A DNA stretch of 64,000 nt, from contig CBDCCK010000002.1 of the NCBI GenBank assembly GCA_965214835.1, positions 1,024,001 through 1,088,000 on the forward strand. Reading direction: 5' to 3'. Origin of the DNA: Nitrosopumilaceae archaeon. GTDB taxonomy: Archaea > Thermoproteota > Nitrososphaeria > Nitrososphaerales > Nitrosopumilaceae. Position numbers and translations under genes: made by a program. The stretch's first letter is position 1, and each line of letters opens with the position of its first letter. The notes under the pieces are model-generated. The model worked only from the letters and a program-made list of their open reading frames with translations, searched no databases and was not told the origin of the DNA. This document shows positions 8,870 through 42,174 of the stretch, piece by piece.

Positions 8870-9901
8870 TCACGGATTCCAGAAGTCAATCGAGAGGACA
8901 TCTGCACGATCATGTTCGGGGGTCAGAAACATGATCGATCCTCCAATGCAATCGCATAAGAGACACGGTGCAGGTATGGGCAGATGCATCGTGTCGTGGA
9001 TCTCGATTCCGCGATCCGCATAGTAGTCATGTACCGTCTGGCCGTTTCTATCCCACGGAGTGGTCCAGCACTGGGGGTGCAGTATCTCAGTCCACACATA
9101 CTCGATATCGGGATCCCTTGTGTACGAGTCCCCGTCAAGCTGATGTCCCGACGTCTGGCTTCCGATTGAGACTCGGATCATGTCGCCTGACTGAGTGACA
9201 TAATACCCGTGCTCGTCGTAACCGTCAGCCCATACCTGCAGCGGCGTCTCGCTCAGGGGCATTATGGTCACAATGAACTGACGTGTCTCCCCCGGATGTA
9301 TCTCGGCTCTGGGAGTGTAAAAATCCCGACCCGGTAAATTATCACTCATAAACTCGTTTGGCTGAAGTGGAGGATACAAGGACAGAATCTTCACGTCCCC
9401 TACGAATTGGATCCGGAACGCGGCGTTGACCGGAGATGCGGTATGCGGGGACACGACGTCAAGTATGACGTCTGCACTCTGGCCGACTAGCGGCAGCTCC
9501 GGCATTCTGAGATCTATTTTCAGTCCGTCTTTTATGTGAGAGTCAGGACGCCAGTTTTCGTACTGGTCAAAATTGTCGGTATACTCGAACTCAATACTGG
9601 ATGCAAAATACTCCGGATATTCGTCCAGTACGAACCACCCGCTGTTTCCCAAATATCGCGCGGCAGGGGCATACGCGCATCCACGGTCATATTCAGGAGA
9701 CATCACCAGCATTGCCTCACCGCTGCAGAGGGATGTGCCCGTCGTATTTACCACCACTCCCATGGCGCCTTCCCGGTCCACAGGAATGGTGGCCCCCGGC
9801 TGGGATGTGCCCGTCGTATTTACCACCACTCCCATGTGTGCGGCGGCAATGAGTACCGCAGCTAGGGCGAGTAAAAGTCCGGCCGCCAAGAGTTTGATCA
9901 T
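8870..9901 (-). CDS. Secreted or membrane-anchored hypothetical protein
   Basis: N-terminal signal peptide; duplicated MGVVVNTTGTS; C-terminal CxxCxC. Confidence 0.7.
   Translation of the reverse strand: MIKLLAAGLLLALAAVLIAAAHMGVVVNTTGTSQPGATIPVDREGAMGVVVNTTGTSLCSGEAMLVMSPEYDRGCAYAPAARYLGNSGWFVLDEYPEYFASSIEFEYTDNFDQYENWRPDSHIKDGLKIDLRMPELPLVGQSADVILDVVSPHTASPVNAAFRIQFVGDVKILSLYPPLQPNEFMSDNLPGRDFYTPRAEIHPGETRQFIVTIMPLSETPLQVWADGYDEHGYYVTQSGDMIRVSIGSQTSGHQLDGDSYTRDPDIEYVWTEILHPQCWTTPWDRNGQTVHDYYADRGIEIHDTMHLPIPAPCLLCDCIGGSIMFLTPEHDRADVLSIDFWNP
9730..9836. repeat. 35-bp perfect direct repeat flanking a 37-bp unique insert (period 72)
   Basis: GGGATGTGCCCGTCGTATTTACCACCACTCCCATG at 9730-9764 and 9802-9836. 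Confidence 0.95.
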
Positions 9902-10022
9902 GGCAGAGCTACCGCCGTGTTGCTAAAAAGACTGCTGTTGTATGGTCTTTCCAAGCTTACACGAAAATGATTCCTCCATGGCACATGACATGAAATGGAG
10001 TAGACTTTATGCGTAATCGGTT

Positions 10023-11648
10023 GTACGAGTTTACCCCTCAGGCGACGCTGCCAGTCAGGGTCTTGACGAGCATTTCCCTCACGCCGCACCCCCGGGCGCG
10101 CCAGTTCATCGCGCACGTCATCAATACGGTGAACATCTCCATGCCTTCCATGGTACGGAGTCCTTGGAATACCTTGCGCGCAATTACGGACGGCCTCAGC
10201 ATGCGCTCGGCTAGGTTGTTGGTGGGCTCCATACCCGGATGCAGTATGAACGTGTAGAGAAATTCAGAGGCGTTCCCAAGCTTTGTGGCAAAGCTCTCGC
10301 ATCCGGCCTCCCTGCCGAATGCCTCGGCCAGCCCGCGCGTTTCTGCCACCAGCATGTCGTGCCGGGCGGCGCCCTCCTCCTCCGGCGGCCCCAGCCCCTT
10401 GGCATGGATGAACTTTTTCTTGAGTGTATCATACAGCGCGTGGGCCTGCCTGGAAGCCTTGCAGGCCTCCCTGGCCTCCCGGAGTATGCGGATCCGGCAC
10501 CACTGCCTGGTCTTGAATGCGGCGTATACGCCGTACCCGTCGACTGTGACCGGTTTGTCATAATACGGAAAGTTCATGTCAACTACGGCCCTGCCCCTAC
10601 TGGGTGCGGCCAGCGTGTGGACGCCGGTGACGGTGCCGTCCCTGTTCCTGCCCACGACCACCCATATGCGGGCCGTCCTGCCGTTGTATGGCATGGCAGT
10701 CTCGTCAATATGCAGATAATCAGAATCCCTGATGGCCTGCCTGATGCTCTCTACGCCGGGCTTTATCGCATTGGCGCCGGCCCTCAGGCACTGCAGCACG
10801 CCTGCCTCTGAGACATCCATGCCCAGGATTTCTGAGCACAGTGTGGCCGTGGCCTGTATGGAGGCAGGTGCCACGCGTATTGCGGCCATCATCCCCGTGA
10901 TGTTTGGTCCAAACTCGGTTCCCGGCACGTTCCATGACCTGTCGTCTTCGATACACATGTTGCCGCAGTCGGCGCATTTGCGCCTGTATGCGGTGTGCTG
11001 TGTCGTGACCGGCTCGGGCCTCTTGGGGGTATCGGTCACGGTCTTTGAGAACATCCTTTTTGGTTTCTTCATGTTGGCGCTGCCGCATTTGTCGCACTTT
11101 TTGGGGCAGTGCTTTACAAATTCGGTCGGCATTCTCTTGTGTGATATCCCCTCGTGTCCCTGCCTGCGGCCCGGCTTTGCCTTTGCAGATGCCGGTACGT
11201 TGCCTGATGCCTTTGCAGCAGCAGTCTTTTTCTGCCTGGTCGGAATCGAGTTCTGCGAGGATGGGGTGTGCGGGTTTTCGTAATATTTGATGTGCTGTCT
11301 GAGCTGCTGGTTTTCTGCTTTCAGTTCGGCAGTCTGCGCCTCAGATGCTGCTACCCCCTCTGATCCCTTTTGCCTGTACCAGCTGATCTGTGATGCCTGC
11401 ATCACGATTGTCACCGAGGACTCGGCCATCTGTTCGACAAGCATGGCTATCGTCTGATCCTTGTCTGCGATGATCCTGTCCTTCCTGCCCAATTCGGCTA
11501 TGGTGCGGGCCAACTCGTCGCGTAGTATCTTGGTCTCTGAATCAGGCAATGAATACAGGTGTGATCTGGATGCATATGGATCCAGATGGTGATCAAAAAT
11601 TGGCCTTGTGCTCAATCTAAATTATACGGATGAGGGGTAAACTCTTAC
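10023..11648 (-). mobile_element. IS66-family element (single ORF)
   Basis: TIR GTACGAGTTTACCCCTCA / TGAGGGGTAAACTCTTAC (17/18 match); no TSD. Confidence 0.9.
10038..11615 (-). CDS. IS66 transposase (TnpC-type)
   Basis: Coiled coil, zinc finger, HIDET, VDGY, PTNNLAERMLRP; the usual QxCWAH is altered to QWCRIR. Confidence 0.9.
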   Translation of the reverse strand: MSTRPIFDHHLDPYASRSHLYSLPDSETKILRDELARTIAELGRKDRIIADKDQTIAMLVEQMAESSVTIVMQASQISWYRQKGSEGVAASEAQTAELKAENQQLRQHIKYYENPHTPSSQNSIPTRQKKTAAAKASGNVPASAKAKPGRRQGHEGISHKRMPTEFVKHCPKKCDKCGSANMKKPKRMFSKTVTDTPKRPEPVTTQHTAYRRKCADCGNMCIEDDRSWNVPGTEFGPNITGMMAAIRVAPASIQATATLCSEILGMDVSEAGVLQCLRAGANAIKPGVESIRQAIRDSDYLHIDETAMPYNGRTARIWVVVGRNRDGTVTGVHTLAAPSRGRAVVDMNFPYYDKPVTVDGYGVYAAFKTRQWCRIRILREAREACKASRQAHALYDTLKKKFIHAKGLGPPEEEGAARHDMLVAETRGLAEAFGREAGCESFATKLGNASEFLYTFILHPGMEPTNNLAERMLRPSVIARKVFQGLRTMEGMEMFTVLMTCAMNWRARGCGVREMLVKTLTGSVA

Positions 11649-12192
11649 CATCTTGGAGGATGAGGTAGGCATCAAGTACGAAGGAGAGATAAACGTGCCT
11701 GCCAGCGGAAGGACGATCCTGGGATTTGTTCATTTTATAGGGCCGATTGGAATGAAAAACAAGATAAAAATCGATGCATCAAGAATAGAAAAAATGGCAG
11801 ATTCTGCATCAATATAGACGGTAACTGCATCTTATGAAGACCTTGAGGATTTTCAGGTAAACGGCTACACGCTCAACGAGGCAGTATCCGAAAAGATTCG
11901 CAGCACCATGCAGCGAATCAAGGTGCGGGATTACTATGACATATGGAAGATGCTTGGAAAAGACGGCCCTCGCGATTTTGATGCTACGTTGATTGGAGAC
12001 ATGGTCAGGCAAAAGTGTGCAATCAATGACATAGAGTATGATCCGTCAAAAATCTTTGATGCTGGCCGCCTTGACGGGCTAAGGGAGCACTGGGGAAAGG
12101 AGCTGGGGAGATTGGTTGCTGGAGAGCTGCCAGAACCTGACAAGGTTTTCAGCTACATACGGAACCTGCTCAGATTTCTCCCTGTAAAATAA
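11649..12192 (+). pseudogene. AbiEii-like nucleotidyltransferase toxin, 5'-truncated by IS66
   Basis: Frame reads KIKIDAS...YTLNEAVSEKIRSTMQR..VRDYYDIW; in-frame TAG at 11815-11817. Confidence 0.75.
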
Positions 12193-12309
12193 TCTTAAAA
12201 CAAACCCGCACAATCTGGGGCCGGAGCCACGCCAGATGGGGGAGGTGTCCGGGCACGACCTGCGCCCGTAAGATATCCAGAAGCGATATGGCGCCAAACC
12301 GGCAGGAAG

Positions 12310-13767
12310 CTACGGACAGGACAGCTCAGAGGACAGCCGCGAGCTTATCTCGGAGATCTTTATCCTGTATTGCTCCATCGAGTCGCGCTCCCGCAGCGTT
12401 ACGGTCTGATCCTCCAGCGTCCGGTGATCCACGGTTATTGCAAACGGACATCCGACCTCGTCCAGCCTCCTGTACCTTCTTCCTATCGCACCGGAGTGAT
12501 CTAGGAACGCGTCAAACCTCGTCCTGATTTCCCTGAAGACCTCGTCGGCTTTTTCCTTCAGGCCGTCCTTTTTTACCAGGGACAGCACGCCTACGTGGAC
12601 CGGGGACAGGTACGGCCTCAGCGACAGGACTGTTCTCTCGTTTTCCCTGTCATCTCGCATGCAGTGCTCTAGGATGGTGTACAGGCTGCGGTCTATCCCC
12701 ATCGAGATCTCAAATACGTGGGGAAGGACCTTCTCATCGCCGTCCATGACCTCGAACTTTTCCCCGCTTTTTTCGGCGTGGCTTGACAGGTCATAGTCGG
12801 ATCTATAGTTGCATGCAACAAGCTCCAGCCATCCGACGGTGGTATTTACCTCAAAGTCAAAGGCGACCTCCGCATAGAATGCCTTTTCCCTGTCGCCCAG
12901 CCTTCGGAACCTGCTCCGTGCCATGTCTATGCCGGTTTTTGCATAAAATTCAGCCAGTATCCCCAGGTAATACGCGACAAACTTGCTGGGAACCAGGCCC
13001 GAATCAACCGCCTCCTGGCACGTGACCTCCCTTGATTCAGAGCCCGCCTCGATTCGAATCCTTGTATCCCTGACCTCGTCGTATTTTTCCAGTCCGTCAA
13101 GCCTTGACGGATTGCAAAAGACCTCGATCTCTGCCTGGTAAAACTCCCTCAGGCGCAGGAGGCTCTGCCTCGGCGCTATCTCGTTTCTAAAACTCTTGCC
13201 TACCTGCGCGACTCCCTGTGGCAGCCTTCCCCTCATTGTCTTGAACAGCCTTGGAAAGTCCACAAATATCGACTGGCAGGTCTCCGGCCTCAGATATGCG
13301 GGCTCGCCCTCCGGACCAATTCCCACTTGGAACATCATGTTGAACTTTTTTGCAGGCTCAAAGCCCCCCTTGCACTTTGGGCACTTTATGCCGTTCTCAG
13401 CTATTGCTTTGTCAAACTCGTCAAGGTCTGCGCTTTCCGGTATCGTAACCCCTGCAGCCTCTGCAATCATCCTGTCTGCCCTGAACGTCGACTTGCACTT
13501 TGCACACTTTATGATCGGATCTGCAAAGCTGGCCAGGTGTCCTGATGCCTCAAAGACCGACCCTGACATTATCTGCGAGCCGTCGATCTCCAGCATGCCG
13601 TCCCTCCTGACCAGCTCCCGCCGCCACAGCTCGAGGAACCTGTTCTTCAGGCCGACGCCGGAGGGGCCGTACTCCCAAAAGCCCGCCTGCGCGTCCCCGT
13701 ACACCTCGCAGCTTGGAAAGTAAAATCCCCTCTCCAGCGCAAGCTTCATGACGCCATCATAGTCCAT
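12310..13767 (-). CDS. glyS: Glycine--tRNA ligase (archaeal/eukaryotic alpha2 type)
   Basis: LRPETCQ, GKSFRNEI.PR, REF.QAEIE, GAIGRRYRR.DE. Confidence 0.96.
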   Translation of the reverse strand: MDYDGVMKLALERGFYFPSCEVYGDAQAGFWEYGPSGVGLKNRFLELWRRELVRRDGMLEIDGSQIMSGSVFEASGHLASFADPIIKCAKCKSTFRADRMIAEAAGVTIPESADLDEFDKAIAENGIKCPKCKGGFEPAKKFNMMFQVGIGPEGEPAYLRPETCQSIFVDFPRLFKTMRGRLPQGVAQVGKSFRNEIAPRQSLLRLREFYQAEIEVFCNPSRLDGLEKYDEVRDTRIRIEAGSESREVTCQEAVDSGLVPSKFVAYYLGILAEFYAKTGIDMARSRFRRLGDREKAFYAEVAFDFEVNTTVGWLELVACNYRSDYDLSSHAEKSGEKFEVMDGDEKVLPHVFEISMGIDRSLYTILEHCMRDDRENERTVLSLRPYLSPVHVGVLSLVKKDGLKEKADEVFREIRTRFDAFLDHSGAIGRRYRRLDEVGCPFAITVDHRTLEDQTVTLRERDSMEQYRIKISEISSRLSSELSCP

Positions 13768-13800
13768 GGTTTTCCGGCCCCCGTCTGGCATAAATTCCTA

Positions 13801-14640
13801 TCATGCCAGATTCTTTACTGCCTCGATATTACCAGAGTCGGTGCGTATGTCGTCTATCGGCGTCTCCAGGATCATGGGGATCTTCTTCTTGTTTATCATT
13901 CTGACTATCTCCCCCATTCCGATCTCCCCTATGTTTCCCAGTCCTATGTGATAGTGCCTGTCCAGGTTGTTGCCCAGCTCCCCCTTGGAGTCATTGAGAT
14001 GCAGGATTTTCAGGTGCCTGAACCCCACCGCCTTGTCAAACTTTGAGAACGTGTCCCTGACATCCCTTGCGGTCCTCAGGTCGTATCCTGCGGCAAATGC
14101 GTGGCAGGTGTCAAGACACACCCCGAACCTGTCTGACGGCTCCAGCTGGGACAGTATCTCTGCCCACTGCCCAAAGTCCGAACCGACGGAGTTTTTCTGA
14201 CCGGCGGTGTTTTCCAGCAGTATCATCACGTCGTTGTCCACCTTTGCTGCCTTCATCAGGCCCTTTACCAGCCTCTTGATGCCTGCCTCCTCGCCTGTCC
14301 CCAGGTGGCTGCCCAGGTGGGTGACCAGGTACGGGATGCCCAGCCGCCCGCATCTCTCCACCTCCTTGACAATCGCATTGACTGACTTTTCAAATGCCTC
14401 CTTGTCTGGCGTTGCCAGGTTTGGAAGATACGGCATGTGTGCGACCGTTGCCATCCTGTCGATGTCGGATCTCTGGACCTTCTCCCTGAAGACCGAGATG
14501 TCCTTGTCTGTCAGCGCCTTTGCATGCCAGCTTCTGGGGCTTCTGGTAAAAATTTGAAATGCAGAACATCCTCTTTCAATAGCATTGTCCACTGCCCTGT
14601 CGACTGATCCCGAGATGGAGACATGGCAGCCCACTTGCAT
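13801..14640 (-). CDS. nfo: Endonuclease IV
   Basis: HMPY..NL, LENTAG, DTCH, HLNDS, DRH, ILETP. Confidence 0.95.
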   Translation of the reverse strand: MQVGCHVSISGSVDRAVDNAIERGCSAFQIFTRSPRSWHAKALTDKDISVFREKVQRSDIDRMATVAHMPYLPNLATPDKEAFEKSVNAIVKEVERCGRLGIPYLVTHLGSHLGTGEEAGIKRLVKGLMKAAKVDNDVMILLENTAGQKNSVGSDFGQWAEILSQLEPSDRFGVCLDTCHAFAAGYDLRTARDVRDTFSKFDKAVGFRHLKILHLNDSKGELGNNLDRHYHIGLGNIGEIGMGEIVRMINKKKIPMILETPIDDIRTDSGNIEAVKNLA

Positions 14641-14679
14641 ATACAAAATCCTCCATATGCTCAATTTAAACCCGATTCA

Positions 14680-14892
14680 TGGCAGCCTTCCCCAGATGCA
14701 GCCATACTCGCGGCGGTGCAGGCGGCGGCGTGCGGATCTGCAGGTTAGCCTGATTTGAATCGTTTCTAATACGCAGTCTTCCAAAAGTTCCCCATAAAAC
14801 GGCCCATGCTCGAAACAATTCAAGCCCTGCCTGCAGATCCGCACGCAGCCGTCTGCACCGCCACGAGTCACCACATCTGAAAAGACCGTAGC
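14680..14892. mobile_element. Repeat family C, full fold-back (MITE-like) copy
   Basis: About 75-bp imperfect inverted arms (GGCGGTGCAG..GTGCGGATCTGCAGG / CCTGCAGATCCGCAC..CTGCACCGCC) between divergent nfo and priL. Confidence 0.75.
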
Positions 14893-14933
14893 ATTGAACC
14901 AGATTTTTAAGGCCAAGCGACAGACCATGGGTC

Positions 14934-15986
14934 ATGATCACCTTGGGCCAGGACGAGATGGCAAAATACCCGTTCATCGGCGATGCCGGACAGTACCTGA
15001 GGGACAAGGGATTCGAGCTGGAGACCTTTGGAGATGATCCCGACCTTGCGCCCATAATCAAAAAGGCCTTTGAGCGCATCCGGGTCTCTACCGAGGGCCG
15101 CACCCATGACTCGGAAATGGACTCCTCCTTTGATACCAAGCTGCAAAAGGACAGCGTGTTGCCTACAGAGGTCCTGTCCTTCATCCTTGCCATCATTCTG
15201 ATAAAGTCTGCCAACGGACACTCGCTGATCAACCGCTTCTGCCTGTCTGAGGCAAGACGCGCGCACGGATTCCTCCTGCAGGATCTGAACAACCCAAAGG
15301 CAACTGACAGTGCCGAAAACAAGCTGAAGGAGACGGCGGTAAAAATCATCCATGAGATCTCCCAGATTTCCCTGACACAGAAAGAAAATTCTACCGAGTG
15401 GCTGATTCCGGTGGCCGACTATGTACGGCGTTCGGTCAACTTTCATGAAAGGCCCTGGAAGCTAATCAACCAGCGCGTACACAGGGGAAACGTAATCATG
15501 ACCTCCGGGGACATCGTACGCCTGATCCGAACGGAGATTCAAAACTATATCAAGTCAAAAATCAAGTCCATCATGAACACGTCCCAGTCCCTGTCCAACC
15601 AGTATGTCGCAGACGTCGAGGCCCTCGCCGAAAGGTTTACCCTGAAGATTGTAGAAACCGGGGAGTATCCCCCGTGCATAAAGCACGCCATTGACGTACT
15701 GCACAAGGGCGAAAACCTCCCCCACTCCGGGCGGTTCCTGCTGGCAACGTACCTGCTGAAGAAGGGGCAGTCCGTCGAGCAGATCGCGCCCCTGTTCAAG
15801 AACGCGCCTGACTATAACGAGCGCGTGACCATGTACCAGCTCAACAACCTTGCAGGAAAAACCGGCTCGGGAACCGAGTATTCGTGCCCCTCGTGTGAAA
15901 AAGTCAAGACGAACAACCTCTGCTTTGCGGTCCCGGAGTGCAGCGGCATCATAAATCCAGTCCAGTTTGGAAGGATACGGCAGTGA
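14934..15986 (+). CDS. priL: DNA primase large subunit
   Basis: KYPF, YPPCI, H.GRF.LATYL, Fe-S cysteines (CPSC..C..C), NPVQ. Confidence 0.92.
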   Translation: MITLGQDEMAKYPFIGDAGQYLRDKGFELETFGDDPDLAPIIKKAFERIRVSTEGRTHDSEMDSSFDTKLQKDSVLPTEVLSFILAIILIKSANGHSLINRFCLSEARRAHGFLLQDLNNPKATDSAENKLKETAVKIIHEISQISLTQKENSTEWLIPVADYVRRSVNFHERPWKLINQRVHRGNVIMTSGDIVRLIRTEIQNYIKSKIKSIMNTSQSLSNQYVADVEALAERFTLKIVETGEYPPCIKHAIDVLHKGENLPHSGRFLLATYLLKKGQSVEQIAPLFKNAPDYNERVTMYQLNNLAGKTGSGTEYSCPSCEKVKTNNLCFAVPECSGIINPVQFGRIRQ

Positions 15987-17104: not shown

Positions 17105-17224
17105 ATCTTACAAAACTGGTGTTTTTGGGCTAGATTATTCGCAAAATTATGACTGATTTGATAAATTACCTTGCGCCTAGGCATTTATCCGGTAAGACAT
17201 TAATTTATCATCGCCTGAGTATGT

Positions 17225-20585: not shown

Positions 20586-20594
20586 TCACGCATT

Positions 20595-23865: not shown

Positions 23866-23868
23866 ATG

Positions 23869-31130: not shown

Positions 31131-31439
31131 AAATATTGGTACGAGGTCACCTACCATCATCAGTTAGGCATGAATTAGCATGAATGATTGTGATCTTCGT
31201 GCCTAGCTAGCAAGGGGACGTGACCACATACAAATATTGGTACGAGGTCACCTACCCCTATCAATCAGGCATGAATTGGCAGGTACAATTATGATTTTCG
31301 TGCCTAGCTAGCAAGGGGACGTGACCACATACAAATATTGTACGAGGTCACCTACCCCTATCAATCAGGCATGAATTGGCAGGTACAATTATGATTTTCG
31401 TGCCTAGCTAGCAAGGGACGTGACCACATACAAATATTG
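31131..31439 (+). repeat. Tandem array of three family B MITEs separated by AAATATTG
   Basis: Units at 31139-31231, 31240-31332 and about 31341-31431; AAATATTG at 31131, 31232, 31333 and 31432. Confidence 0.92.
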
Positions 31440-33443: not shown

Positions 33444-33721
33444 GCCCCGTATGCCCTCCTGTCACATACAAATTCTACGCATTTGGGTGGTTCGAATTTT
33501 ATGGGGTCCTCACCATCAGAGTATACAGGCATATGTACCATGTCTTGTATTCATTTACACATGACACGCACAAAAACATACTGGCAAGGATCGCGGCAAA
33601 GACGCTTAGATCACTTTCAAGAAATTCGTTAGTGTCTGGCGCCACAAGGATGTTAGAGTATCGTATAAGAACCGTCAAAATCAAGCCTAGACTCAAATAA
33701 GGAACCTATCCCAAAACTCTC

Positions 33722-34876: not shown

Positions 34877-35044
34877 AAGGGGGTACATTTCCGTCTACTA
34901 CCAGACCAGCTAAGTGAAAAGTACCCTGAAATCGAGCAAAAACAAAAACCTGGCAGGTACAACGCCTCAATAGCAAGGCAGAACAACAAATCTAATTTAC
35001 ATTTCACTTAGCTGCAGACGAGGAAAGGTTATTACATTTGCCCC

Positions 35045-36166
35045 TTGACTCAAACACTATTGAAGGCGTGCTTCTTTGGCTCCTATCTAAGATCCACCAA
35101 CGGCATTCCGTGCAACAACACCGGAGACCTGCTAAAGGCAATCTGCGAGTCGCAGGGCTTTGAAACCGTGGAATGCCACGAGGACTGCCATTCCTACGGC
35201 TCGGCAGTCGTGGCGTACGTCCGGCTGTTCCTGAGGCACAGGAGGATCAGCTACGACGTGATGGTAATCCCGTGGCGGGGAATAGTCACGCTCCCGCTTG
35301 CTAGGCTGATCTGCAAAAAGCCGATAGTGTACTTTCCCACGCTGCTGCTCCACTACACGCTGGTGGCCGTCCGCAGGACAGTACCCAGAAACTCGCTGAG
35401 GGCAAGGCTTGTCCGCCTTGCGGAAAAGACCGCCTGCAGGTGGGCGGATCTGGTTGTAACGGAGAGCACCCATCAGATCGACTATTTTGTCAGGGAGTAC
35501 GGCCTGCCGAGGGAAAAGTTCCGCCAGCTCTGGCCTGCCGCATACGAGCCGCTCTTCAGGCCCCTGCCGTTCAAGGAGAGGACCGGCCAGTTCGTCGTGC
35601 TGTACTTTGGAACCTTCATTCCCACGTCGGGCGTCAGAACCATAGTGAGGGCGGCAGGGCAGCTGTGCGGTGAAAAGGACATAACGTTTGTCTTTTGCGG
35701 CACCGGCCAGGACGAGCCGGAGATCAGGCGGTATGCGGAGAAAAACCGCTTGTCCAACGTCAGGTTCATGGGACTCTTAAAGTCATCACCGCTGCTAGAG
35801 TGCATACGGAACAGCGACGTGTGCCTCGGATTGTTCCAGTCAAACAGCAAGATGGAGGGATCCATGTCCAACAAGATCAACCAGGCCCTGTCGTCGGCCA
35901 AGCCCCTGATCACACTGAGCACGTCTGCGACGCGCGAGGCAGGTCTGGTCGACGGGGAGAACTGCATGCTGGTGCACTCTGACTCGCCCGAGGAGCTGGC
36001 CCGGTGCATACTGCGGCTGAGGGACGATGACGGCCTCCGCAGACGCGTGGCCATGCAGGGACGGCGGCACTATCTCGACAAACTGTCAATTGATCGGTCG
36101 GGCGGGCAGCTGGGTCTGTACATGAGCGGCATGTGCGGTACTGAGTTGGGGGGGGGGCAAGCCTGA
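35045..36166 (+). CDS. Glycosyltransferase family 4
   Basis: LYFGTFIP, SDVCLGLF, NKI.QAL..KPLIT. Confidence 0.85.
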   Translation: MTQTLLKACFFGSYLRSTNGIPCNNTGDLLKAICESQGFETVECHEDCHSYGSAVVAYVRLFLRHRRISYDVMVIPWRGIVTLPLARLICKKPIVYFPTLLLHYTLVAVRRTVPRNSLRARLVRLAEKTACRWADLVVTESTHQIDYFVREYGLPREKFRQLWPAAYEPLFRPLPFKERTGQFVVLYFGTFIPTSGVRTIVRAAGQLCGEKDITFVFCGTGQDEPEIRRYAEKNRLSNVRFMGLLKSSPLLECIRNSDVCLGLFQSNSKMEGSMSNKINQALSSAKPLITLSTSATREAGLVDGENCMLVHSDSPEELARCILRLRDDDGLRRRVAMQGRRHYLDKLSIDRSGGQLGLYMSGMCGTELGGGQA

Positions 36167-36347
36167 ACCCGGAATGCGGGGCTGGCCTGCACAAGTGACG
36201 CATGCAGGCAGCATCGGGGGCCCATCGGCGTTCCGGAATCCCAACTGCGTTCTTTCTGTTTACCTCAGGCTGATCCGCCGCCTTGGCTAGTGGGGCGTCT
36301 TTATCATCTGTTCGATCCCCCACGGCACCGGGCCGTGACGGGCAGGC

Positions 36348-37327
36348 TCAGCCCTCTCGCGGTCTGATCCTTGTGGTTCTCAGGCGATCCGTCAGTGAGC
36401 CCACCAGACGACACACGGGCCTGCTTTCAAGCAGGGCCCCGAGCATCCCGGCTGCAAGCCGCGCCGCCGTACCCTCGTGGGTGCCGTACACGAACGAACT
36501 CAGGACGTGATCTGCGCGACGGCACGCAGATATGACAACGAACCTGCGTCCGACCATCCTCCTGGCCTCGGCGTATCTCCTCCTGTCCGGCCCGCTCAGC
36601 CGGTCTACGGTCAGCTCCAGGACCCTGCGCCTCATGACGCTCCTCTCCCTCGGGCCCATCTTGCTCTGCCCGTTGTGCTACCGGTGCCCGTATATGATGA
36701 CCGGAACGTGGTGGAACCTGTACCCGTGGTTTACGGTCAGCCGCATGCCAAACTCGATGTCCTCGCCTCTGTCAAGGCCCTCGTCAAATCCCCCGACGTC
36801 CTCCAGAATCGATCTGTGAATGATGGAGATGCACACTTGTGCAAAGTACATGCTGAACATCAGGGCGCCCTGCTCCAGCGCGTCCATGGAGTTGTCCATA
36901 TAGTACGACTGCGTCCTGCCGTTTGGCCTCCCGTCGGATCCCAACAACTGCAGGTCAAAAAACGGTATTATCTTGGTAGTCGAGGAGGAGCCGAGCTCCT
37001 CGGCGGCCCCGACAAGCCTCTCTACGGCATCAGGATACATTATGTCGTCGGCGGCCACTTCTGCAAGCCACTCCCCGGTCATGTGGGAGATTCCCGCATT
37101 GTAGGCTGCCGCACGGCCCGCGTGCTTGATGTTGACTATTGTGATCCTGTCAGAGTACCGCTCCAGTATCTCGGCCGACCCGTCGGTGGAGCCGTCGTTT
37201 ACGGCTATGACCTCGGTGTTGCCGTACGTCTGTACCAGCGCCGACTCTATGGACTGCGCCAGGTACCTTTCCCCGTTGTACACCCTGATTAGCAGCGACA
37301 CCCTGCCGCTGTTGTATGTCCGAGCCG
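36348..37327 (-). pseudogene. Glycosyltransferase family 2, paralog of 31460
   Basis: NDGSTD, AADD, ED; in-frame TAG at 36678-36680; MITE inserted at the expected start. Confidence 0.82.
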
Positions 37328-37417
37328 GTAAGAGCTTACCCTGGGCGACATTGCTGGCCGTATCTTGATCACCATGCCCCCCACGCCGCATCTTTGGGGG
37401 GGGGGGTAAACTCTTAC
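37328..37417. mobile_element. 90-bp internal-deletion derivative of the IS66 at 10023
   Basis: Ends GTAAGAGCTTACCC / GGGGTAAACTCTTAC; interior aligns with 10023-10089. Confidence 0.82.
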
Positions 37418-37631
37418 CCTGAGCTGCACCACTGCCTTTTAACCCCTCCTCTGGTTCTGCGTTTGACAATGCTGTAACTCCGCCCCGCATGATAGATATC
37501 TGTTTCGTGGAGGGTTCGGGATGCCGCGGCGACCGTAATTTTGGCCCGACCTCCTTCCGGGCCCCAGCATCCTTGCCACCTTTTCAAAATATCCCCTGAT
37601 CTGCGCCTTGTAGTATGAACATAAAATAATC

Positions 37632-37690
37632 GATCATAATTTTGACACATCGTGCCTATTTTTACAAAGTGCTCGATTTTCAATTGTGCG
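37632..37690 (+). repeat. Dispersed ~60-bp repeat (copy 3 of 3)
   Basis: GATCATAATTTTGACACATCGTGCCTATTT...TTTTCAATTGTGCG. Confidence 0.7.
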
Positions 37691-37699
37691 TAGTATGAT

Positions 37700-38012
37700 C
37701 CCGTGTTGGAACGCCTGTATCGACACGACATAGTCAAGCTGGCTCTCCGGATAGCAAGTCTACACAGCATAGCCTCCCTGCTAGATCCGGCCTCCGCCCG
37801 GACAGCTGTCTTATCGCCATGGGTGACGAGTCGATCCCGAGAATCTCCAGTCGAGTCTGCAAGAGGGATGAAGTTCCTCCCACTGCCGCATCCGGCATGC
37901 AGTCCGTCCCCGCTAGCAGCATCGGCCGCACCGGCAAGCATGCCTCCTATTTTATCGGTAAAATCCACGCTCGGGGCGTCCGAGTATCTCCCGTTTGTGT
38001 GTTCGGCACGCC
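37700..38012 (-). pseudogene. Class I SAM methyltransferase remnant
   Basis: LHAGCGSGRN in one frame and ILGIDSSPMAI in another; boundaries approximate. Confidence 0.6.
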
Positions 38013-38132
38013 GCTGCAGCATGCAGGCGCGAATTTTGTTGCAAGAGAGTTTGAACATGAAAGTCGAGGAGATCCAACCGATTACGAACCAGTCTTAGAA
38101 ATATTTAACTTTGCCAAAAACCACACTTCCTT

Positions 38133-38666
38133 ATGGCAGGCCTGTCCCTTACAAGTCCCAGCTTTGATCACGGGGCAGAGATCCCAAAAAGGTTCGGCTA
38201 CAAGCATGGCAACTCCAGCCCGCCGCTATCTGTCCAGGGCATCCCCGAAGACTGCAAGTCCCTTGCACTGATAATGGACGATCCCGATGCCGTGGGTGCC
38301 GTTGGAAGGGTCTGGGTTCACTGGGTGGTATGGAACATCCCACCCCCAAGCACAAGCCCCAACTTTGCCGAGTCAGTGGTACCGGAAGAAAACATCATGC
38401 CACCAGAAATACGTTGTTTCCCCCAGAGCTCCTACTTTGCCGAGTCAGTGGTACCCTCGGGCTCTAGGGAGGGAAAAACCGACTTTGGCCAAATAGGCTA
38501 CGGCGGCCCGGCGCCTCCTGACAAGCGCCATACGTACGTCTTCAAACTATACGCCCTAGATACAAAGCTTGATCTGGAGCGGGGCTCATCCAAGAAGCAG
38601 CTAGAGGAGGCAATGCGGGCCCACATAATTGCAGAGGCAAGGCTGGAGGGAACCTTTGCCCCATGA
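38133..38666 (+). CDS. YbhB/YbcL (PEBP, Raf kinase inhibitor-like) protein with a 24-aa insertion
   Basis: DDPDA, WVHW..WNI, GYGGPAPP, H.YVF.LYALD; FAESVVP occurs twice. Confidence 0.9.
   Translation: MAGLSLTSPSFDHGAEIPKRFGYKHGNSSPPLSVQGIPEDCKSLALIMDDPDAVGAVGRVWVHWVVWNIPPPSTSPNFAESVVPEENIMPPEIRCFPQSSYFAESVVPSGSREGKTDFGQIGYGGPAPPDKRHTYVFKLYALDTKLDLERGSSKKQLEEAMRAHIIAEARLEGTFAP
38349..38455. repeat. About 35-bp direct repeat flanking a 37-bp unique insert (period 72)
   Basis: 38355-38383 vs 38427-38455 match 27/29, with a perfect 22-bp core ACTTTGCCGAGTCAGTGGTACC. Confidence 0.9.
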
Positions 38667-38672
38667 CACATC

Positions 38673-38790
38673 TTGCAGCCTTCCCAGGCGTATCTGAATC
38701 ATGGCAGCGATAGGCGGCACCGTGCGGATCTACAGGCAACCCAATCTGAATTGTGTCAGACCTAGAGCCGTTTTGCGGGGAACCTAGAGG
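38673..38790 (+). repeat. Repeat family C, degenerate copy
   Basis: GCAGCCTTCCCAG..GTGCGGATCTACAGGCA..GCCGTTTTGCGGG. Confidence 0.7.
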
Positions 38791-38840
38791 GGGCCGTTTT
38801 GTTCAAAAGAGTAATAAACAATCTTTCCATCCCTTAATAA

Positions 38841-40964
38841 TTGGAAAACAGCGCGGAAAACGGTACAGCCAAAAAAGAGAGATTTCAATTTTCCCTGCGC
38901 CATGCAGCCATCATAGGAATTCTGGTGCTTGCGTTCTCGGCATCCTTTCTTATCCGCTCACAGGCCTTGGATTTTGGATTCGAGCTAAACGAGTTTGATC
39001 CCTTCTTCAACTACAGGGCCACAAACTACCTTGTAGAAAACGGCCTTGCAGAATATCTTGACTGGCATGATGAGATGAGCTGGCATCCTAACGGGCGTAA
39101 CATTTCTGCGACCTCCCAAAGCATGCTGCATTATACGGCGGCCACGACCTACCAGATCTTTGGCATGGGCTCTAGCCTTTACGACTTTACGATTATCTTC
39201 CCTGTCGTCTTTGGCTCCCTGACATGCATTGTGATCTTTGCCCTTGTTCGCGTTATCGGCGGTACAAACGCCGGACTAGTCGCGGCCCTGCTTTTTTCCA
39301 TCTCCGTCCCAATCGTCATACGCGGGTTAGTCGGCTGGTTCAAGTCAGAGCCGCTGGGGCTGTTCTTCGGACTGCTGGGAGCCTACCTGCTCCTGAGCGG
39401 GATCAAGACGCAAAACCGCAATGAAGGCGCCTTGAGACTTGCAGGAGCAGGCCTGTTCATGGCATTCGGACTGGCCTCGTGGGGCGGAATCCAGTTCTTT
39501 TTGATGCCGCTGGGCGTGTTCTTTCTGGCACTGCCGTTCCTTCGTGACGATCACAGATTTCAGACCTGGTCAATCCCCATATTTACCACAGTCTTGATGA
39601 TGACGTCCCTGCTGTTTGAAAGACCCGGACTCAGCTTTGTCACCGGAATCAGTGGGTTTACAATTGTCGGCCCGACCGTATTTCTGGTTGCCTGCAACGT
39701 CATACAGTCCAAAAGCCCCGTTGGTAAAAAGTTCCGCAACGGGATCCTGCTCCTTGCAGGAGTACTGGCTGCAGGAATATCGATCATAGCCCTGAGCTTT
39801 TCTACCAGTCTGCTGAACATACCAAGCTATAGATACCTCAACGCAGTCAATCCGTTCCTTACCACGACAAACCCGCTGACAGATTCTGTATCAGAGCATG
39901 CAACGACTACCCTGGAGCAGTCGTTTTTCTTTTTGTCGATAATGATGGTCTTTGCCGGAATCGGAGCATGGCTGATATTCCATGACAAAAAACTCAGCTC
40001 TAGGCAGCATCGCGACGTGATGGCGTTTGCGCTGATTATTGGCATTACCGGGGTCTATGTCAGCTCCTCGTTTATCAGGCTGGAGGTGTTTGCCTCGATT
40101 TCCGTAATAATCCTAAGCTCGATAGGAATCTCAAGGCTCATAGAAAACATCTCCGCTAGGGAGCCTGGCATAGGACTTCCGTTCAAGTCCGCACTGATCG
40201 GCGGAATAGTCATCCTGTTTGTCTCCCCGTTGGTCATTCCTGCCGAGGGGAACTGGATCGATTCGGTCAAAATCCCGCCGACCATACTCAACGGAGGAAC
40301 CGCCCTCCCATATGTTGCGCCTGACTGGCCCTCCACACTGTCATGGATTAGTGCCAACACCCCCCAGGACTCCATCATAGCTGCGTGGTGGGATTATGGA
40401 TACTGGATAACTGCCATTGGGGAGCGCACGTCCCTTGTTGACAATGCCACAATGGATACCGAGGCGATTCAAAACGTTGCAAGAATGCTGCTTGCAAATC
40501 CCGACGACTCTTGGAGGATGCTGCAAGAGATGAACGCCGACTATGTTGTCACCTTTGTCATGTCTCAGGCGGTACCCTCTGGCGGCGATATCACATTGTA
40601 CCGACTGGGAGGAGGCGGAGACGAGAGCAAAAAGTACTGGTTTGTAAGAATAGCCGAAGAGCCCCTGGAAAAATATATGCATGCCGACGGAGTTACCGGA
40701 AATGACTATTTCTGGAACGAGACCATGCTAGGCCAAATGTTCCCATATGTGCCAATAATCTACATTGATCCGGTAGCTGGTGCCCAGTCTGAGTCCTACG
40801 TTGCCGGTTATACCCCGCTTTATGTGAAGAGCGTCAAGCTGCCCTCTGATGGCGATGGCCCTCTGCGACTGGCATATGCATCCCCGACATTTAACGACGG
40901 CTCTCAAGTCTCCTTTGGCGTTTTCGTTTATGAGGTAAACGACGACTATGTCCTGAAGGACTAG
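38841..40964 (+). CDS. aglB: Oligosaccharyltransferase (STT3)
   Basis: EFDPFF, SVSEH, WWDYG, DN.T. Confidence 0.93.
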   Translation: MENSAENGTAKKERFQFSLRHAAIIGILVLAFSASFLIRSQALDFGFELNEFDPFFNYRATNYLVENGLAEYLDWHDEMSWHPNGRNISATSQSMLHYTAATTYQIFGMGSSLYDFTIIFPVVFGSLTCIVIFALVRVIGGTNAGLVAALLFSISVPIVIRGLVGWFKSEPLGLFFGLLGAYLLLSGIKTQNRNEGALRLAGAGLFMAFGLASWGGIQFFLMPLGVFFLALPFLRDDHRFQTWSIPIFTTVLMMTSLLFERPGLSFVTGISGFTIVGPTVFLVACNVIQSKSPVGKKFRNGILLLAGVLAAGISIIALSFSTSLLNIPSYRYLNAVNPFLTTTNPLTDSVSEHATTTLEQSFFFLSIMMVFAGIGAWLIFHDKKLSSRQHRDVMAFALIIGITGVYVSSSFIRLEVFASISVIILSSIGISRLIENISAREPGIGLPFKSALIGGIVILFVSPLVIPAEGNWIDSVKIPPTILNGGTALPYVAPDWPSTLSWISANTPQDSIIAAWWDYGYWITAIGERTSLVDNATMDTEAIQNVARMLLANPDDSWRMLQEMNADYVVTFVMSQAVPSGGDITLYRLGGGGDESKKYWFVRIAEEPLEKYMHADGVTGNDYFWNETMLGQMFPYVPIIYIDPVAGAQSESYVAGYTPLYVKSVKLPSDGDGPLRLAYASPTFNDGSQVSFGVFVYEVNDDYVLKD

Positions 40965-41122
40965 ATGTCCTGGTATCTCTCGGCCAGCCTATACCTCATG
41001 TACTTGTCATCGGGGGAAAATTTTGCGGGGTGCACGGATAGCGTATCCCCCCGACACTTGGGACACAAGGCCTTCATCGTATACGCCCTGCACCTAGAGC
41101 ACCTTCTTATCTGGTAACGCAT
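40961..41122 (-). CDS. nop10: H/ACA RNP protein Nop10 (53 aa; not in ORF track)
   Basis: C..C..YT....CP.C....HPAKFSPDDKY..YR; follows aIF2 alpha. Confidence 0.92.
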   Translation of the reverse strand: MRYQIRRCSRCRAYTMKALCPKCRGDTLSVHPAKFSPDDKYMRYRLAERYQDI

Positions 41123-41124
41123 CG

Positions 41125-41925
41125 TCATCCAACCCTTGTCTTCTTCGAGTCCTCTCTTTCGAACTTGAACGTACCCTTTTTCTTCTCTATGGACTGGTGA
41201 ATCTCTGCAATTACGGGCTTGATGGCCCTTTCTGCCGCCTTAAAGTCCGGGGCAGTAATCCCCAGTCGATATTTTGGCGCACCCAGGTAGGTAACCTCGA
41301 TTTTTACCCCCTCGTGCCCACTGATTGCGTCCTGCAGCGCCTTTTTGATAACCTCCACCCCGTCTGATCTAGAGCTTGTAACCTCCATTATTCCCCTAAT
41401 CTCGACTGAGGGAAGCTTGATCTTCGAGCATACCTCCTGCATGGCAGCCAGTGTCTTTTCTGGAATTTTGAGCGACTTGACTGCTATTACGCCCCTTGTC
41501 GCTACCTCCATGAACGCATCAAAGAGGGAGTCATATTTTGAAAACAGCAGATCCTCGATCTCCTCGCGCTCCCTGTCTGACAGCTTTGTCTTCTCAACTA
41601 TGCTGTTCATCAGCGTGTTTCCCTTCTCCTCCCGCTTGACCTCGAGAAGCTTTTTCTTTCTCTGGTCTGCGGAGACCTGCTTTAGTGACAAATCAATGTC
41701 GTTTCTACCCGGATTTACCTTTTTTACCAAAAGCACCTTTTTCTCCCCACGCTTTACGAACTTGCCGACGGACCTTATCCATCCTGGCGCAATCTCCGAT
41801 ATGTGCAGGAACCCCTGCATGTCGTCGTATTCGTCTAGCGTGACATATGCCCCGTGATCCATAATCTTTGAAATTGTGGCAACGACGATCTCCCCCCGCT
41901 CGGGCAGCTCTAAATCAGATGACAT
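41125..41925 (-). CDS. eif2a: Translation initiation factor 2 alpha subunit
   Basis: LPE.GE.V, S1 domain LHISEI, IDLSLK, YLGAPKYR. Confidence 0.95.
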   Translation of the reverse strand: MSSDLELPERGEIVVATISKIMDHGAYVTLDEYDDMQGFLHISEIAPGWIRSVGKFVKRGEKKVLLVKKVNPGRNDIDLSLKQVSADQRKKKLLEVKREEKGNTLMNSIVEKTKLSDREREEIEDLLFSKYDSLFDAFMEVATRGVIAVKSLKIPEKTLAAMQEVCSKIKLPSVEIRGIMEVTSSRSDGVEVIKKALQDAISGHEGVKIEVTYLGAPKYRLGITAPDFKAAERAIKPVIAEIHQSIEKKKGTFKFEREDSKKTRVG

Positions 41926-41973
41926 AGTGCTCAAGTCAAGTCATATGTAAATTAATGTTGCTTGCTAGAAACC

Positions 41974-42066
41974 GCGTGAGGCCACCTTCCCCTAAACAGC
42001 TTGGCACAAATTTACGTCTAAATTGTGGCTTTCATGCCTGACCAGCAAGGGGACGCGACCTCACAC
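41974..42066 (+). mobile_element. MITE family B (93 bp)
   Basis: GCGTGAGGCCACC...GGGGACGCGACCTCACAC; 8-bp TSD TAGAAACC / TAGAAATC. Confidence 0.85.
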
Positions 42067-42174
42067 TAGAAATCAATTCCCCGCTTGGCCTTGATCCCTG
42101 CTGCTGGTCGCATACACGTATCCTGTCGCCGTCGATTGCTAGAAATCAATTCCCCGCTTGGCCTTGATCCCTGC
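42066..42174. repeat. 36-bp perfect duplication of the cobO 3' end flanking a 37-bp insert (period 73)
   Basis: CTAGAAATCAATTCCCCGCTTGGCCTTGATCCCTGC at 42066-42101 and 42139-42174. Confidence 0.95.

What the first reader, a model, noticed from the sequence alone, without database searches (positions are those of the whole stretch)
9730..42174. Recurrent 72-73 bp duplication-plus-insert scars: candidate off-target CRISPR-type spacer integration that remodels genes
Seen: three unrelated loci share one geometry, a duplication of local sequence around a unique insert. They are 35+37 bp (9730-9836), about 35+37 bp (38349-38455) and 36+37 bp (42066-42174, or 39+34 once a later MITE is removed). The duplicated segments are ordinary coding sequence, unrelated to each other, with only weak dyad symmetry. 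The inserts have no TIRs and I found no match for them in the window. Both intragenic events are exactly 24 codons and stop-free, and the 73-bp event leaves its gene intact, as expected after selection. Known: Cas1-Cas2 duplicates a repeat-length target around a measured protospacer and can integrate at non-CRISPR sites, whereas IS/MITE TSDs in this window are only 2-8 bp. Inference: a ruler-based integrase has left fixed one-spacer arrays at high density (3 in 64 kb) and inserts new peptides into proteins. No cas gene is visible in this window.
Basis: partly seen in the sequence, partly recalled or inferred. Interest (0 to 1): 0.9.

Follow-up and report, generated by a model that had tools for sequence, protein, structure and literature searches.

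The report
Off-target CRISPR spacer insertions genome-wide
An ammonia-oxidising archaeon's own CRISPR memory-writing enzyme appears to have inserted spacer-sized DNA pieces at about fifty ordinary places in its chromosome, some inside genes, so this immune machinery also acts as a natural mutagen.

Summary
All three loci exist as described.

- **Genome-wide signal.** Of 139 isolated two-copy direct repeats with periods of 40-130, 61 have periods of 71-76. Their length peaks at 36-37 nt.
- **Native match.** The native array has 148 identical 36-nt repeats and 35-40-nt spacers. A Cas4-Cas1 fusion and Cas2 lie beside it, with type I-G effector genes downstream.
- **Unit lengths.** 40 core events average 73.05 nt against 73.07 nt for the native array.
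- **Empty sites.** Eight events have an empty site in a sister species. Contigs from another study carry locus 3 in its empty form.
- **Insert origin.** 14 of 49 inserts copy other host loci, four of them beside the replication origin, and 8 of the 14 have a TTN PAM. None of the 147 native spacers matches the chromosome.
- **Selection.** In-frame events predominate inside long open frames.
- **Relatives.** One family member with 531 repeats shows the same scars at its own, shorter unit length. Another shows none in 400 kb.

Off-target integration is known from E. coli experiments; I found no report of this natural scale.

The parts
9730..9764 (.). Locus 1, target duplication copy 1 (35 nt exact)
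9765..9801 (.). Locus 1 insert (37 nt). It is a 100% copy of C2:906373-906409, which lies inside a cyclophilin-domain ORF about 6 kb from the orc1/cdc6 origin. On the minus strand it encodes PGATIPVDREGA, identical to the donor protein's peptide.
9802..9836 (.). Locus 1, target duplication copy 2
8870..9901 (-). 343-aa ORF with an N-terminal hydrophobic segment, no Pfam family and no relative found. It carries the in-frame 24-codon locus 1 event just after that segment.
38348..38383 (.). Locus 2, duplication copy 1. The last 29 nt are 93% identical to copy 2. The 5' 7 nt have diverged or carry an indel, so the 36-nt extent is inferred from the ortholog and the protein repeat.
38384..38419 (.). 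Locus 2 insert (about 36 nt). No source was found in the genome.
38420..38455 (.). Locus 2, duplication copy 2. It corresponds to the single copy in G002.
38133..38666 (+). PEBP-family gene carrying the in-frame 24-codon event. Pfam PF01161 aligns residues 16-175 to profile positions 1-135, i.e. about 25 extra residues.
41977..42065 (.). MITE-like element with 10 further partial copies in the genome. It is absent from G002 but present in the runs that lack the locus 3 event, so it predates that event. Its right end abuts the duplication.
42066..42101 (.). Locus 3, target duplication copy 1 (36 nt exact)
42102..42138. Locus 3 insert (37 nt). No match in the genome, viral contigs or metagenome contigs.
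42139..42174 (.). Locus 3, target duplication copy 2. It contains the last 11 codons and the stop codon of the cobA/btuR-type gene.
42139..42672 (-). ATP:corrinoid adenosyltransferase gene (PF02572), left intact by the 73-bp event

Best explanation
The three loci are three of about 49 independent off-target (ectopic) spacer integrations made by this archaeon's own type I-G adaptation complex, a Cas4-Cas1 fusion plus Cas2.

Proposed steps:
1. The complex captures 35-39-bp fragments. At least 29% come from the host chromosome, especially from DNA beside the replication origin and from insertion sequences. The Cas4 domain favours fragments next to a TTN PAM.
2. The complex normally joins a fragment at the leader-proximal repeat of the CRISPR array. 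Occasionally it instead attacks two phosphodiesters 36 bp apart on opposite strands of ordinary DNA.
3. Gap repair then duplicates that 36-bp target on both sides of the insert. The result is a one-spacer pseudo-array of 71-76 bp.
4. Selection removes frame-breaking events from genes. The intragenic survivors are therefore mostly 72- or 75-bp insertions that add 24-25 residues.

Shown here: the geometry, the genome-wide excess, the empty sites, the presence/absence difference between populations, the donor loci, the PAM, the cas genes, and the way the scar length follows the native unit length in a second genome.

Inferred: that Cas4/1-Cas2 is the catalyst, and why this lineage is so prone to off-target events.
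For: 1. Geometry. The duplicated length peaks at 36-37 nt. Of 139 isolated repeats, 61 have periods of 71-76. The native array has 148 identical 36-nt repeats and spacers of 37 nt (54), 36 (45), 38 (18), 39 (16), 35 (7) and 40 (4). Mean unit length is 73.05 nt for 40 core events against 73.07 nt for the native array, Mann-Whitney p 0.94.

2. Enzyme. The genome has one Cas1 homologue. It is a 566-aa Cas4-Cas1 fusion with Cas2 directly upstream of the array. Cas3g, Cas8g2, Cas7g and Csb2 lie downstream.

3. Insertion polarity. Of 17 events examined against relatives, 8 had alignable orthologous sequence in G002. All 8 sites were empty, with a single repeat copy. One of them is also empty in G004.

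4. Recent activity. Contigs of runs X5 and X6 (one study, 2019) join 42065 to 42139. They skip 73 nt, with 36 nt shared by both sides, and differ from the window by 0-1 letters over 3.2 kb. Run X1 carries the filled form. In 39 of 49 events the two repeat copies are identical.

5. Captured DNA. 14 of 49 inserts match another host locus at 97-100% identity over 28-38 nt. Of those 14, 8 have TTN directly 5' on one strand, against 11.9% for random sites, p 6e-5. The one native spacer with a known target, on contig C1, also has TTC beside it. The model I-U/I-G system takes 36-bp spacers with a TTN PAM in about 50% of unique spacers (PMC6547450, passages read).

6. Donor hotspot. Four donors lie at C2:900193-906409, next to orc1/cdc6, a PolD small-subunit gene and a 33%-GC stretch. 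The cumulative GC skew has its extreme at 0.88 Mb. An oriC hotspot for self spacers is known in Pyrococcus furiosus (PMC5737086, passages read).

7. Selection. None of the 147 native spacers matches the chromosome, against 14 of 49 off-target inserts, Fisher p 8e-10. Of 25 events inside open frames of at least 150 codons, 19 are multiples of 3. The native array's periods predict 41% (binomial p 5e-4).

8. Independent lineage. G066 has 531 native 36-nt repeats with period mode 71. In 400 kb its isolated repeats peak at periods 70 (7), 71 (6) and 72 (5).
Against: - No biochemical or genetic test links the scars to Cas4/1-Cas2.
- 35 of 49 inserts have no identified source. The locus 3 insert has no exact match in viral contigs or metagenome contigs.
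- Only 8 of 14 donors have a TTN PAM.
- A leader-like GG next to the duplication is enriched (16 of 40 against 13.5%). It does not predict insert orientation relative to the PAM: 1 case consistent, 2 inconsistent.
- Some curated events are atypical, with duplication lengths of 29-32 or 40-46 nt or a period of 69.
- Having the system is not sufficient. G004 has a homologous repeat and a Cas4-Cas1 fusion but shows 0 such events in 400 kb.
- Neither of the 2 G066 inserts tested has a second copy in G066.
- Locus 1 has no ortholog, so it has no empty-site test.
- The frame excess tested against non-ORF events is only suggestive (19/25 against 12/25, Fisher p 0.08).
Confidence: 0.93

Rival explanations
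1. A different ruler-type integrase or transposase, such as a casposase-like or unknown enzyme, makes 36-bp staggered cuts and inserts short DNA. Its match to the CRISPR unit would be coincidental.
For: The genome is rich in IS and MITE elements. One event abuts a MITE end. The catalyst has not been shown.
Against: - The genome has only one Cas1-family match, and it is the CRISPR-linked Cas4-Cas1 fusion.
- Both the duplication length and the insert-length distribution equal those of the native array.
- Both shift together in G066.
- The donors carry the PAM of type I-G systems.
- The inserts are unique sequences, not copies of one element.
Confidence: 0.03
2. The scars are tandem duplications from replication slippage or template switching, in which the middle part later diverged.
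For: Locus 2 has diverged repeat copies. The genome also holds many true tandem repeats.
Against: - In 39 of 49 events the repeat copies are identical while the insert shows no similarity to the flanks.
- 14 inserts are 97-100% copies of distant loci.
- Empty sites lack exactly one unit.
- Slippage gives no reason for a fixed 36-nt duplication or for a PAM.
Confidence: 0.01
3. The scars are assembly or sequencing artefacts of this genome.
For: Short repeats can confuse assemblers. I saw only contigs of public runs, not raw reads.
Against: - Locus 2 is bridged by contigs in runs from three studies.
- The locus 3 filled form appears in X1 as a 97-nt contig across the insert, plus the 36-mer at about double depth.
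- The locus 3 empty form appears in another study's runs.
- The same kind of scar occurs in an unrelated assembly, G066.
- An artefact would not copy PAM-flanked loci.
Confidence: 0.01

Closest known systems
Neo-CRISPR loci from non-canonical spacer integration by E. coli Cas1-Cas2 (Nivala, Shipman and Church 2018, Nat Microbiol). I know this only through citing passages in bioRxiv 10.1101/148544, PMC7054753 and PMC9456107. The paper itself is not held.
   Same: Cas1-Cas2 integrates a spacer at a non-CRISPR chromosomal site and duplicates a repeat-length target, which creates a one-spacer array.
   Different: That work used overexpressed type I-E proteins and supplied oligonucleotides in E. 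coli. According to one citing preprint it found only circumstantial evidence in two other species. Here the events are natural, number about 49 in one archaeal genome with a type I-G system, sit inside genes, are largely host-derived, and recur in a second lineage.
Type I-U/I-G adaptation module of Geobacter sulfurreducens (Almendros et al. 2019, PMC6547450; passages read)
   Same: A Cas4-Cas1 fusion plus Cas2, a predominant 36-bp spacer, and an upstream TTN PAM in about half of unique spacers.
   Different: The passages I read describe acquisition into a leader-repeat construct, mostly from plasmid DNA. I saw no mention of off-target sites there.
Self-spacer acquisition hotspots in Pyrococcus furiosus (Shiimori et al. 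2017, PMC5737086; passages read)
   Same: Most new spacers come from the host chromosome, with hotspots at oriC, transposons and CRISPR arrays. Here the donors include four beside oriC, two repeated elements and two within 50 kb of the cas locus.
   Different: Those spacers were read in CRISPR arrays of laboratory cultures. Here they are fixed or polymorphic at non-CRISPR sites in natural populations.
Casposons (Cas1-family casposase transposons). The features cited here are recalled, plus abstracts seen in the listing.
   Same: A Cas1-family integrase makes staggered cuts and leaves target-site duplications.
   Different: Casposons are multi-kilobase elements that carry their own casposase and have short duplications. 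Here the inserts are 33-40 bp, are all different, and the only Cas1 homologue is CRISPR-linked.

Membership tests
Off-target Cas1-Cas2 spacer integration (neo-CRISPR unit) | The target duplication equals the native repeat length | tested here: met
   The duplicated length peaks at 36 (14 events) and 37 (12 events). The native repeat is 36 nt in all 148 copies.
Off-target Cas1-Cas2 spacer integration (neo-CRISPR unit) | The insert length distribution equals the native spacer distribution | tested here: met
   Unit length is 73.05 nt against 73.07 nt, p 0.94. G066 scars follow its shorter native units.
Off-target Cas1-Cas2 spacer integration (neo-CRISPR unit) | The same genome encodes a Cas1-Cas2 integrase | tested here: met
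   The genome's single PF01867 match is a Cas4-Cas1 fusion, and Cas2 lies next to it.
Off-target Cas1-Cas2 spacer integration (neo-CRISPR unit) | An insertion into a previously single-copy site (an empty site exists) | tested here: met
   All 8 alignable orthologous sites are empty, and 9 further events were not resolvable. Locus 3 is empty in the runs of one other study.
Off-target Cas1-Cas2 spacer integration (neo-CRISPR unit) | The inserts are captured protospacers with the system's PAM | tested here: met
   14 of 49 inserts have donors, and 8 of those 14 have TTN against 11.9% by chance. The other 35 inserts have no known source.
Off-target Cas1-Cas2 spacer integration (neo-CRISPR unit) | Site choice resembles the leader-repeat junction | tested here: inconclusive
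   GG at positions -2/-1 occurs in 16 of 40 events against 13.5%. G/C occupies position -2 in 68 of 80 half-sites. Similarity to leader plus repeat is slightly raised. Orientation does not follow the PAM side.
Off-target Cas1-Cas2 spacer integration (neo-CRISPR unit) | Catalysis by Cas1-Cas2 demonstrated | not testable with these tools
   This needs an in vitro or genetic assay.
Functional CRISPR array | A conserved repeat family recognised by the Cas processing enzymes, with repeated acquisition next to a leader | tested here: not met
   Each pair of repeats is a different piece of host sequence. No G000 unit has more than one insert.
Type I-G (formerly I-U) CRISPR-Cas | Cas3g, Cas8g, Cas7g (Csb1), Csb2 (Cas5-6), a Cas4-Cas1 fusion and Cas2 | tested here: met
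   NCBIfam hits are above the curated cut-off for Cas3g, Cas7g and Csb2, and below it for Cas8g2 (100.8 against 125 bits). Pfam hits support Cas4-Cas1 and Cas2.
IS/MITE transposition footprint | One element sequence in many copies with terminal inverted repeats and a short duplication | tested here: not met
   The inserts are mutually unrelated, and 14 are copies of ordinary genes or IS interiors. Terminal inverted repeats were not scanned formally.

The most novel reading that the evidence does not exclude
In some large-genome Nitrosopumilaceae, off-target integration by a very active type I-G Cas4/1-Cas2 module is an ongoing and quantitatively important mutational process.

- It occurs about once per 65 kb in this genome and is at least as dense in the sampled part of G066.
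- It writes 24-25-residue insertions into proteins. In one case it copied a 12-residue peptide from one protein into another, in frame.
- Because the off-target units escape autoimmune selection, they form a natural, largely unselected archive of naive acquisition. That archive shows a host-derived share of at least 29% and a donor hotspot beside the origin.
Probability: 0.6. Interest if true: 0.85.

Novelty: new variant of a known kind. Interest (0 to 1): 0.8.

Why it matters
- **A cost of adaptive immunity.** It would show, in nature rather than in an overexpression experiment, that the CRISPR adaptation machinery damages and remodels its host's genes. That is a measurable cost of adaptive immunity and an unrecognised source of indels and new peptide segments.
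- **A view of naive acquisition.** The scars record what Cas4/1-Cas2 captures before autoimmunity filters it. None of the 147 native spacers is self-derived, against 14 of 49 off-target inserts. This makes the self versus non-self question testable from genomes alone.
- **A practical signature.** An isolated direct repeat of native repeat length at the native unit spacing could be searched for in every CRISPR-bearing genome. It would also flag false one-spacer "arrays" in CRISPR annotation.

Tried and rejected
- **Nivala et al. 2018** (PMC5832444) is not held. I know it only from citing passages, so I cannot say how its natural examples compare. Supplements were closed and may bear on that.
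- **Literature searches** turned up no report of large-scale natural off-target integration. That covers only the held library.
- **Locus 1 ortholog.** The search for related loci with the locus 1 protein found no relative. A DNA search of four genus members also found no ortholog, so locus 1 has no empty-site test.
- **Unresolved empty-site tests.** Nine events gave no usable orthologous alignment. For ev2366624, ev2369026, ev3116143, ev3125695, ev3127496, ev2810966, ev2201735 and window locus 1, only repeated elements or contig ends matched. The ev2453982 region could not be aligned.
- **Donor of the locus 3 insert.** No exact match in viral contigs or metagenome contigs.
- **Orienting events by a leader-like GG.** Rejected: 1 consistent case against 2 inconsistent with the PAM side.
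- **Read-through from the ribosomal-protein operon into cas4/1.** I considered this as the cause of hyperactivity and set it aside. A tRNA-Asn gene and a hairpin lie between them, and nothing was tested.
- **The 39+34 reading of locus 3.** Rejected.
- **The palindrome cluster at C2:34.4-35.7 kb.** It looked array-like but has irregular spacing and was dropped. Two microsatellite-like hits were dropped with it.
- **RNA evidence.** No RNA holder was listed.
- **G066 inserts.** Neither of the 2 tested has a second copy in that genome.
- **Post hoc statistics.** The enrichment of integration sites at 2.20-2.48 Mb (15 of 49) and their paucity below 1 Mb (5 of 49) use windows chosen after seeing the data.
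- **Not used.** Complex prediction, structure prediction, and the protein homology searches search for homologous proteins and the search of protein representatives.

Full report
**The observation.** The three loci are as described. The repeat finder on the whole window, with copies at most 150 bp apart, returns five direct-repeat families. Three are the reported pairs:
- 9730/9802: 35 nt, 100% identical, spacing 72.
- 38355/38427: 29 nt, 93% identical, spacing 72.
- 42066/42139: 36 nt, 100% identical, spacing 73.

The other two are a 3x101-nt tandem and a weak 22-nt pair. Locus 1 lies in a 343-aa ORF on the minus strand, just after its N-terminal hydrophobic segment, and keeps the frame. Locus 2 lies in a PEBP-family gene and keeps the frame. 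Pfam aligns 160 residues of that protein to a 135-position profile. At locus 3, repeat copy 2 holds the last codons and the stop codon of a CobA/BtuR-type adenosyltransferase gene, which is intact.

**Genome-wide test.** The window is C2:1024001-1088000 of a 3.22-Mb, two-contig genome. The titles of its relatives place it in the Nitrosopumilaceae, the ammonia-oxidising archaea. An exact-word scan shows a large excess of direct repeats at periods 72-75. I then excluded the two native arrays and required that no other repeat lie within 300 bp. A mismatch-tolerant scan under those rules finds 139 isolated two-copy repeats with periods of 40-130. Of these, 61 have periods of 71-76 (72: 25, 75: 13, 73: 12, 74: 5, 71: 4, 76: 2). 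Most other periods hold 0-2; the largest, period 42, holds 9. The duplicated length peaks at 36 nt (14 events) and 37 nt (12 events).

I curated 50 events with duplication lengths of 29-46 nt and periods of 69-77. Three tandem or palindromic clusters were dropped, and locus 2 was added. One event sits in a duplicated segment and so occurs twice, which leaves 49 independent events. That is about one per 65 kb. No unit in this genome holds more than one insert.

**The native system.**
- The genome has a single Cas1 homologue.
- It is a 566-aa Cas4-Cas1 fusion followed by Cas2. Both lie directly upstream of an array of 148 identical 36-nt repeats.
- The array's spacers are 37 nt (54), 36 (45), 38 (18), 39 (16), 35 (7) and 40 (4).
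- Downstream lie an IS630-family transposase gene, then Cas3g, Cas8g2 (below the curated cut-off), Cas7g and Csb2. This is a type I-G system.
- The 40 core events have unit lengths indistinguishable from the native array: mean 73.05 against 73.07 nt, p 0.94.

**Insertion polarity and age.** I compared 17 events with four genomes of the same genus. Eight had alignable orthologous sequence in G002, which is about 85% identical at the nucleotide level. In all eight, G002 has one copy of the "repeat" and lacks the insert. One of these sites is also empty in G004. Nine events could not be resolved, and none showed a filled orthologous site.

The runs of public data add a population view.
- Contigs of two runs from one other study (X5 and X6, 2019) join 42065 directly to 42139. 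They skip 73 nt, with 36 nt common to both sides, and differ from the window by 0-1 letters over 3.2 kb.
- Those contigs contain the adjacent MITE. The MITE therefore came first, and the event is 36+37.
- Run X1 (2024, possibly the source sample) shows the filled form. It has a 97-nt contig across the insert and the 36-mer at about double depth.
- Locus 2 is filled in runs from three studies. Its copies have diverged, so it is older.

These are contigs, not reads, so they show presence and not absence of minor forms. In 39 of 49 events the two copies are identical.

**Where the inserts come from.** 14 of 49 inserts match another place in the host genome over 28-38 nt at 97-100% identity.
- The locus 1 insert is 37/37 identical to C2:906373-906409.
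- Four donors lie within C2:900193-906409. That region holds orc1/cdc6, the PolD small-subunit gene and a 33%-GC stretch.
- The cumulative GC skew has its extremes at 0.88 and 2.34 Mb. The hotspot therefore sits beside the probable replication origin.
- Two other donors are repeated elements.
- 8 of 14 donors have TTN directly 5' on one strand, against 11.9% of random sites (p 6e-5).
- The only native spacer with a known target, on the 13-kb contig C1, has TTC beside it.

These features match what I read of the model I-U/I-G module, which takes 36-bp spacers with TTN in about half of unique spacers (PMC6547450). They also match the self-spacer hotspots of Pyrococcus furiosus at oriC, transposons and arrays (PMC5737086).

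None of the 147 native spacers matches the chromosome (Fisher p 8e-10). This is the pattern expected if self-targeting spacers are lethal in a processed array but harmless at sites that yield no crRNA. That last step is inference. Inserts without a source have host-like GC (52.1%, against 47.9% for native spacers). This is only a weak hint that more of them are host-derived.

**Consequences and site choice.** Of 25 events inside open frames of at least 150 codons, 19 are multiples of three. Elsewhere the figure is 12 of 25, and the native unit lengths predict 41%. At locus 1 the insert landed in the donor's own sense and frame, so the peptide PGATIPVDREGA now occurs in both proteins.

Target sites are not random.
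- G or C occupies position -2 in 68 of 80 half-sites and position +1 in 63 of 80.
- GG precedes the duplication on at least one side in 16 of 40 events, against 13.5% expected. The native leader also ends in GGG.
- The sites are GC-richer than the genome, fold slightly better, and resemble the leader plus repeat slightly more than random sites do.

This motif does not predict insert orientation. I therefore claim only a bias.

Integration sites are denser at 2.20-2.48 Mb (15 of 49). That region is both the terminus side and the stretch just upstream of the cas locus. The window was chosen after seeing the data.

**Relatives.**
- Cas1 is found in 19 of 61 sampled family genomes, and several carry the fused form.
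- G004 has a homologous 36-nt repeat, about 36 repeats and a Cas4-Cas1 fusion. It shows no such scar in 400 kb around its cas locus.
- G066 belongs to another genus and has 70% GC. It has 531 native 36-nt repeats with periods of 71 (199), 72 (148), 70 (82) and 73 (68).
- In 400 kb, G066's isolated repeats peak at periods 70 (7), 71 (6) and 72 (5), with lengths of 33-43 nt.

The scar length therefore follows each genome's own unit length. The phenomenon also seems to go with very large arrays, though that rests on three genomes only.

**Mechanism and rivals.** The best explanation is off-target integration by Cas4/1-Cas2, as set out in the Best explanation section. A different integrase, slippage with later divergence, and assembly artefact are each contradicted by several independent results: the single Cas1 homologue, the donor copies and PAM, the empty sites, the independent runs, and a second assembly.

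**Comparison with what is known.** Off-target integration that creates neo-CRISPR loci has been shown experimentally in E. coli. According to a citing preprint, natural evidence existed only as circumstantial cases in two species. I could not read the original paper. My six literature searches found nothing describing dozens of natural events per genome, gene remodelling, or this lineage. I therefore file it as a new variant of a known kind.

**Limits.**
- The catalyst is inferred.
- Most inserts have no known source.
- Only contigs of public runs were seen.
- Only one read-laying run and parts of two relatives' genomes were available.

Noticed in passing
L002:13621-14829 (G000 C2:2475820-2477028): The ribosomal protein L24 (L26e/L24P family) ORF is 402 aa, with a long C-terminal part made of 66-75-bp tandem repeats. 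That seems unusually long for this protein (its Pfam profile has 82 positions).
   Followed up: partly
G000 C2:34400-35750: About 20 copies of a 24-25-nt perfect palindrome at irregular spacing of 50-100 bp. It is not CRISPR-like and could be a cluster of protein-binding sites.
   Followed up: partly
L002:17547-17623 and L003:1-15519 (G000 C2:2479746-2508418): The cas4/1-cas2-array-cas3g-csb2 island starts right after a tRNA-Asn gene downstream of a ribosomal-protein operon. An IS630-family transposase gene lies between the array and cas3g. A 1045-aa UvrD-like helicase with a Cas4-type nuclease domain and a TIR-domain protein follow. Together these look like a defence island.
   Followed up: partly
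L004 (G000 C2:135821-136368 and neighbours): A second small array of 8 repeats, in two variants of the same 36-nt repeat, lies beside VirB4- and VirD4-like conjugation genes. It is possibly carried by an integrated conjugative element.
   Followed up: partly
G000 C1 (13,188 bp): Native spacer 41 matches C1:6366-6401 (36/36) with TTC beside it. About 42% of C1 is made of copies of chromosomal repeats, including a 1.76-kb element with more than 10 chromosomal copies.
   Followed up: partly
window 42065/42066: The left edge of the locus 3 duplication coincides exactly with the right end of the older MITE. Two other events (C2:2201735, C2:3116143) also touch repeated elements.
   Followed up: no
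G000 C2:608098, 1995606, 2707231; 1736693 and 2257292: A multi-copy MITE-like family carries an internal 25-39-nt direct repeat at periods of 72-75. It may be a mobile element that picked up an off-target unit, or it may be unrelated.
   Followed up: no
G000 C2:1301320 and 1301520: Two separate events with different repeats lie only 200 bp apart.
   Followed up: no
G000 C2:900193, 902180, 904377, 906373: The four origin-proximal donor sites are spaced about 2.0-2.2 kb apart, all on one side of the AT-rich stretch. This may be chance.
   Followed up: no
G066 C1:2939634-2939850 and 2989807-2990020: Two places where the same non-CRISPR 36-40-nt segment occurs three times at spacings of 69-72. These are possible two-spacer neo-arrays. 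One begins with the last 11 nt of the native repeat and lies 1.5 kb from a native array.
   Followed up: no
window 31131-31432: Three tandem copies of a 101-nt unit (100%, 88% and 69% identity to the first).
   Followed up: no
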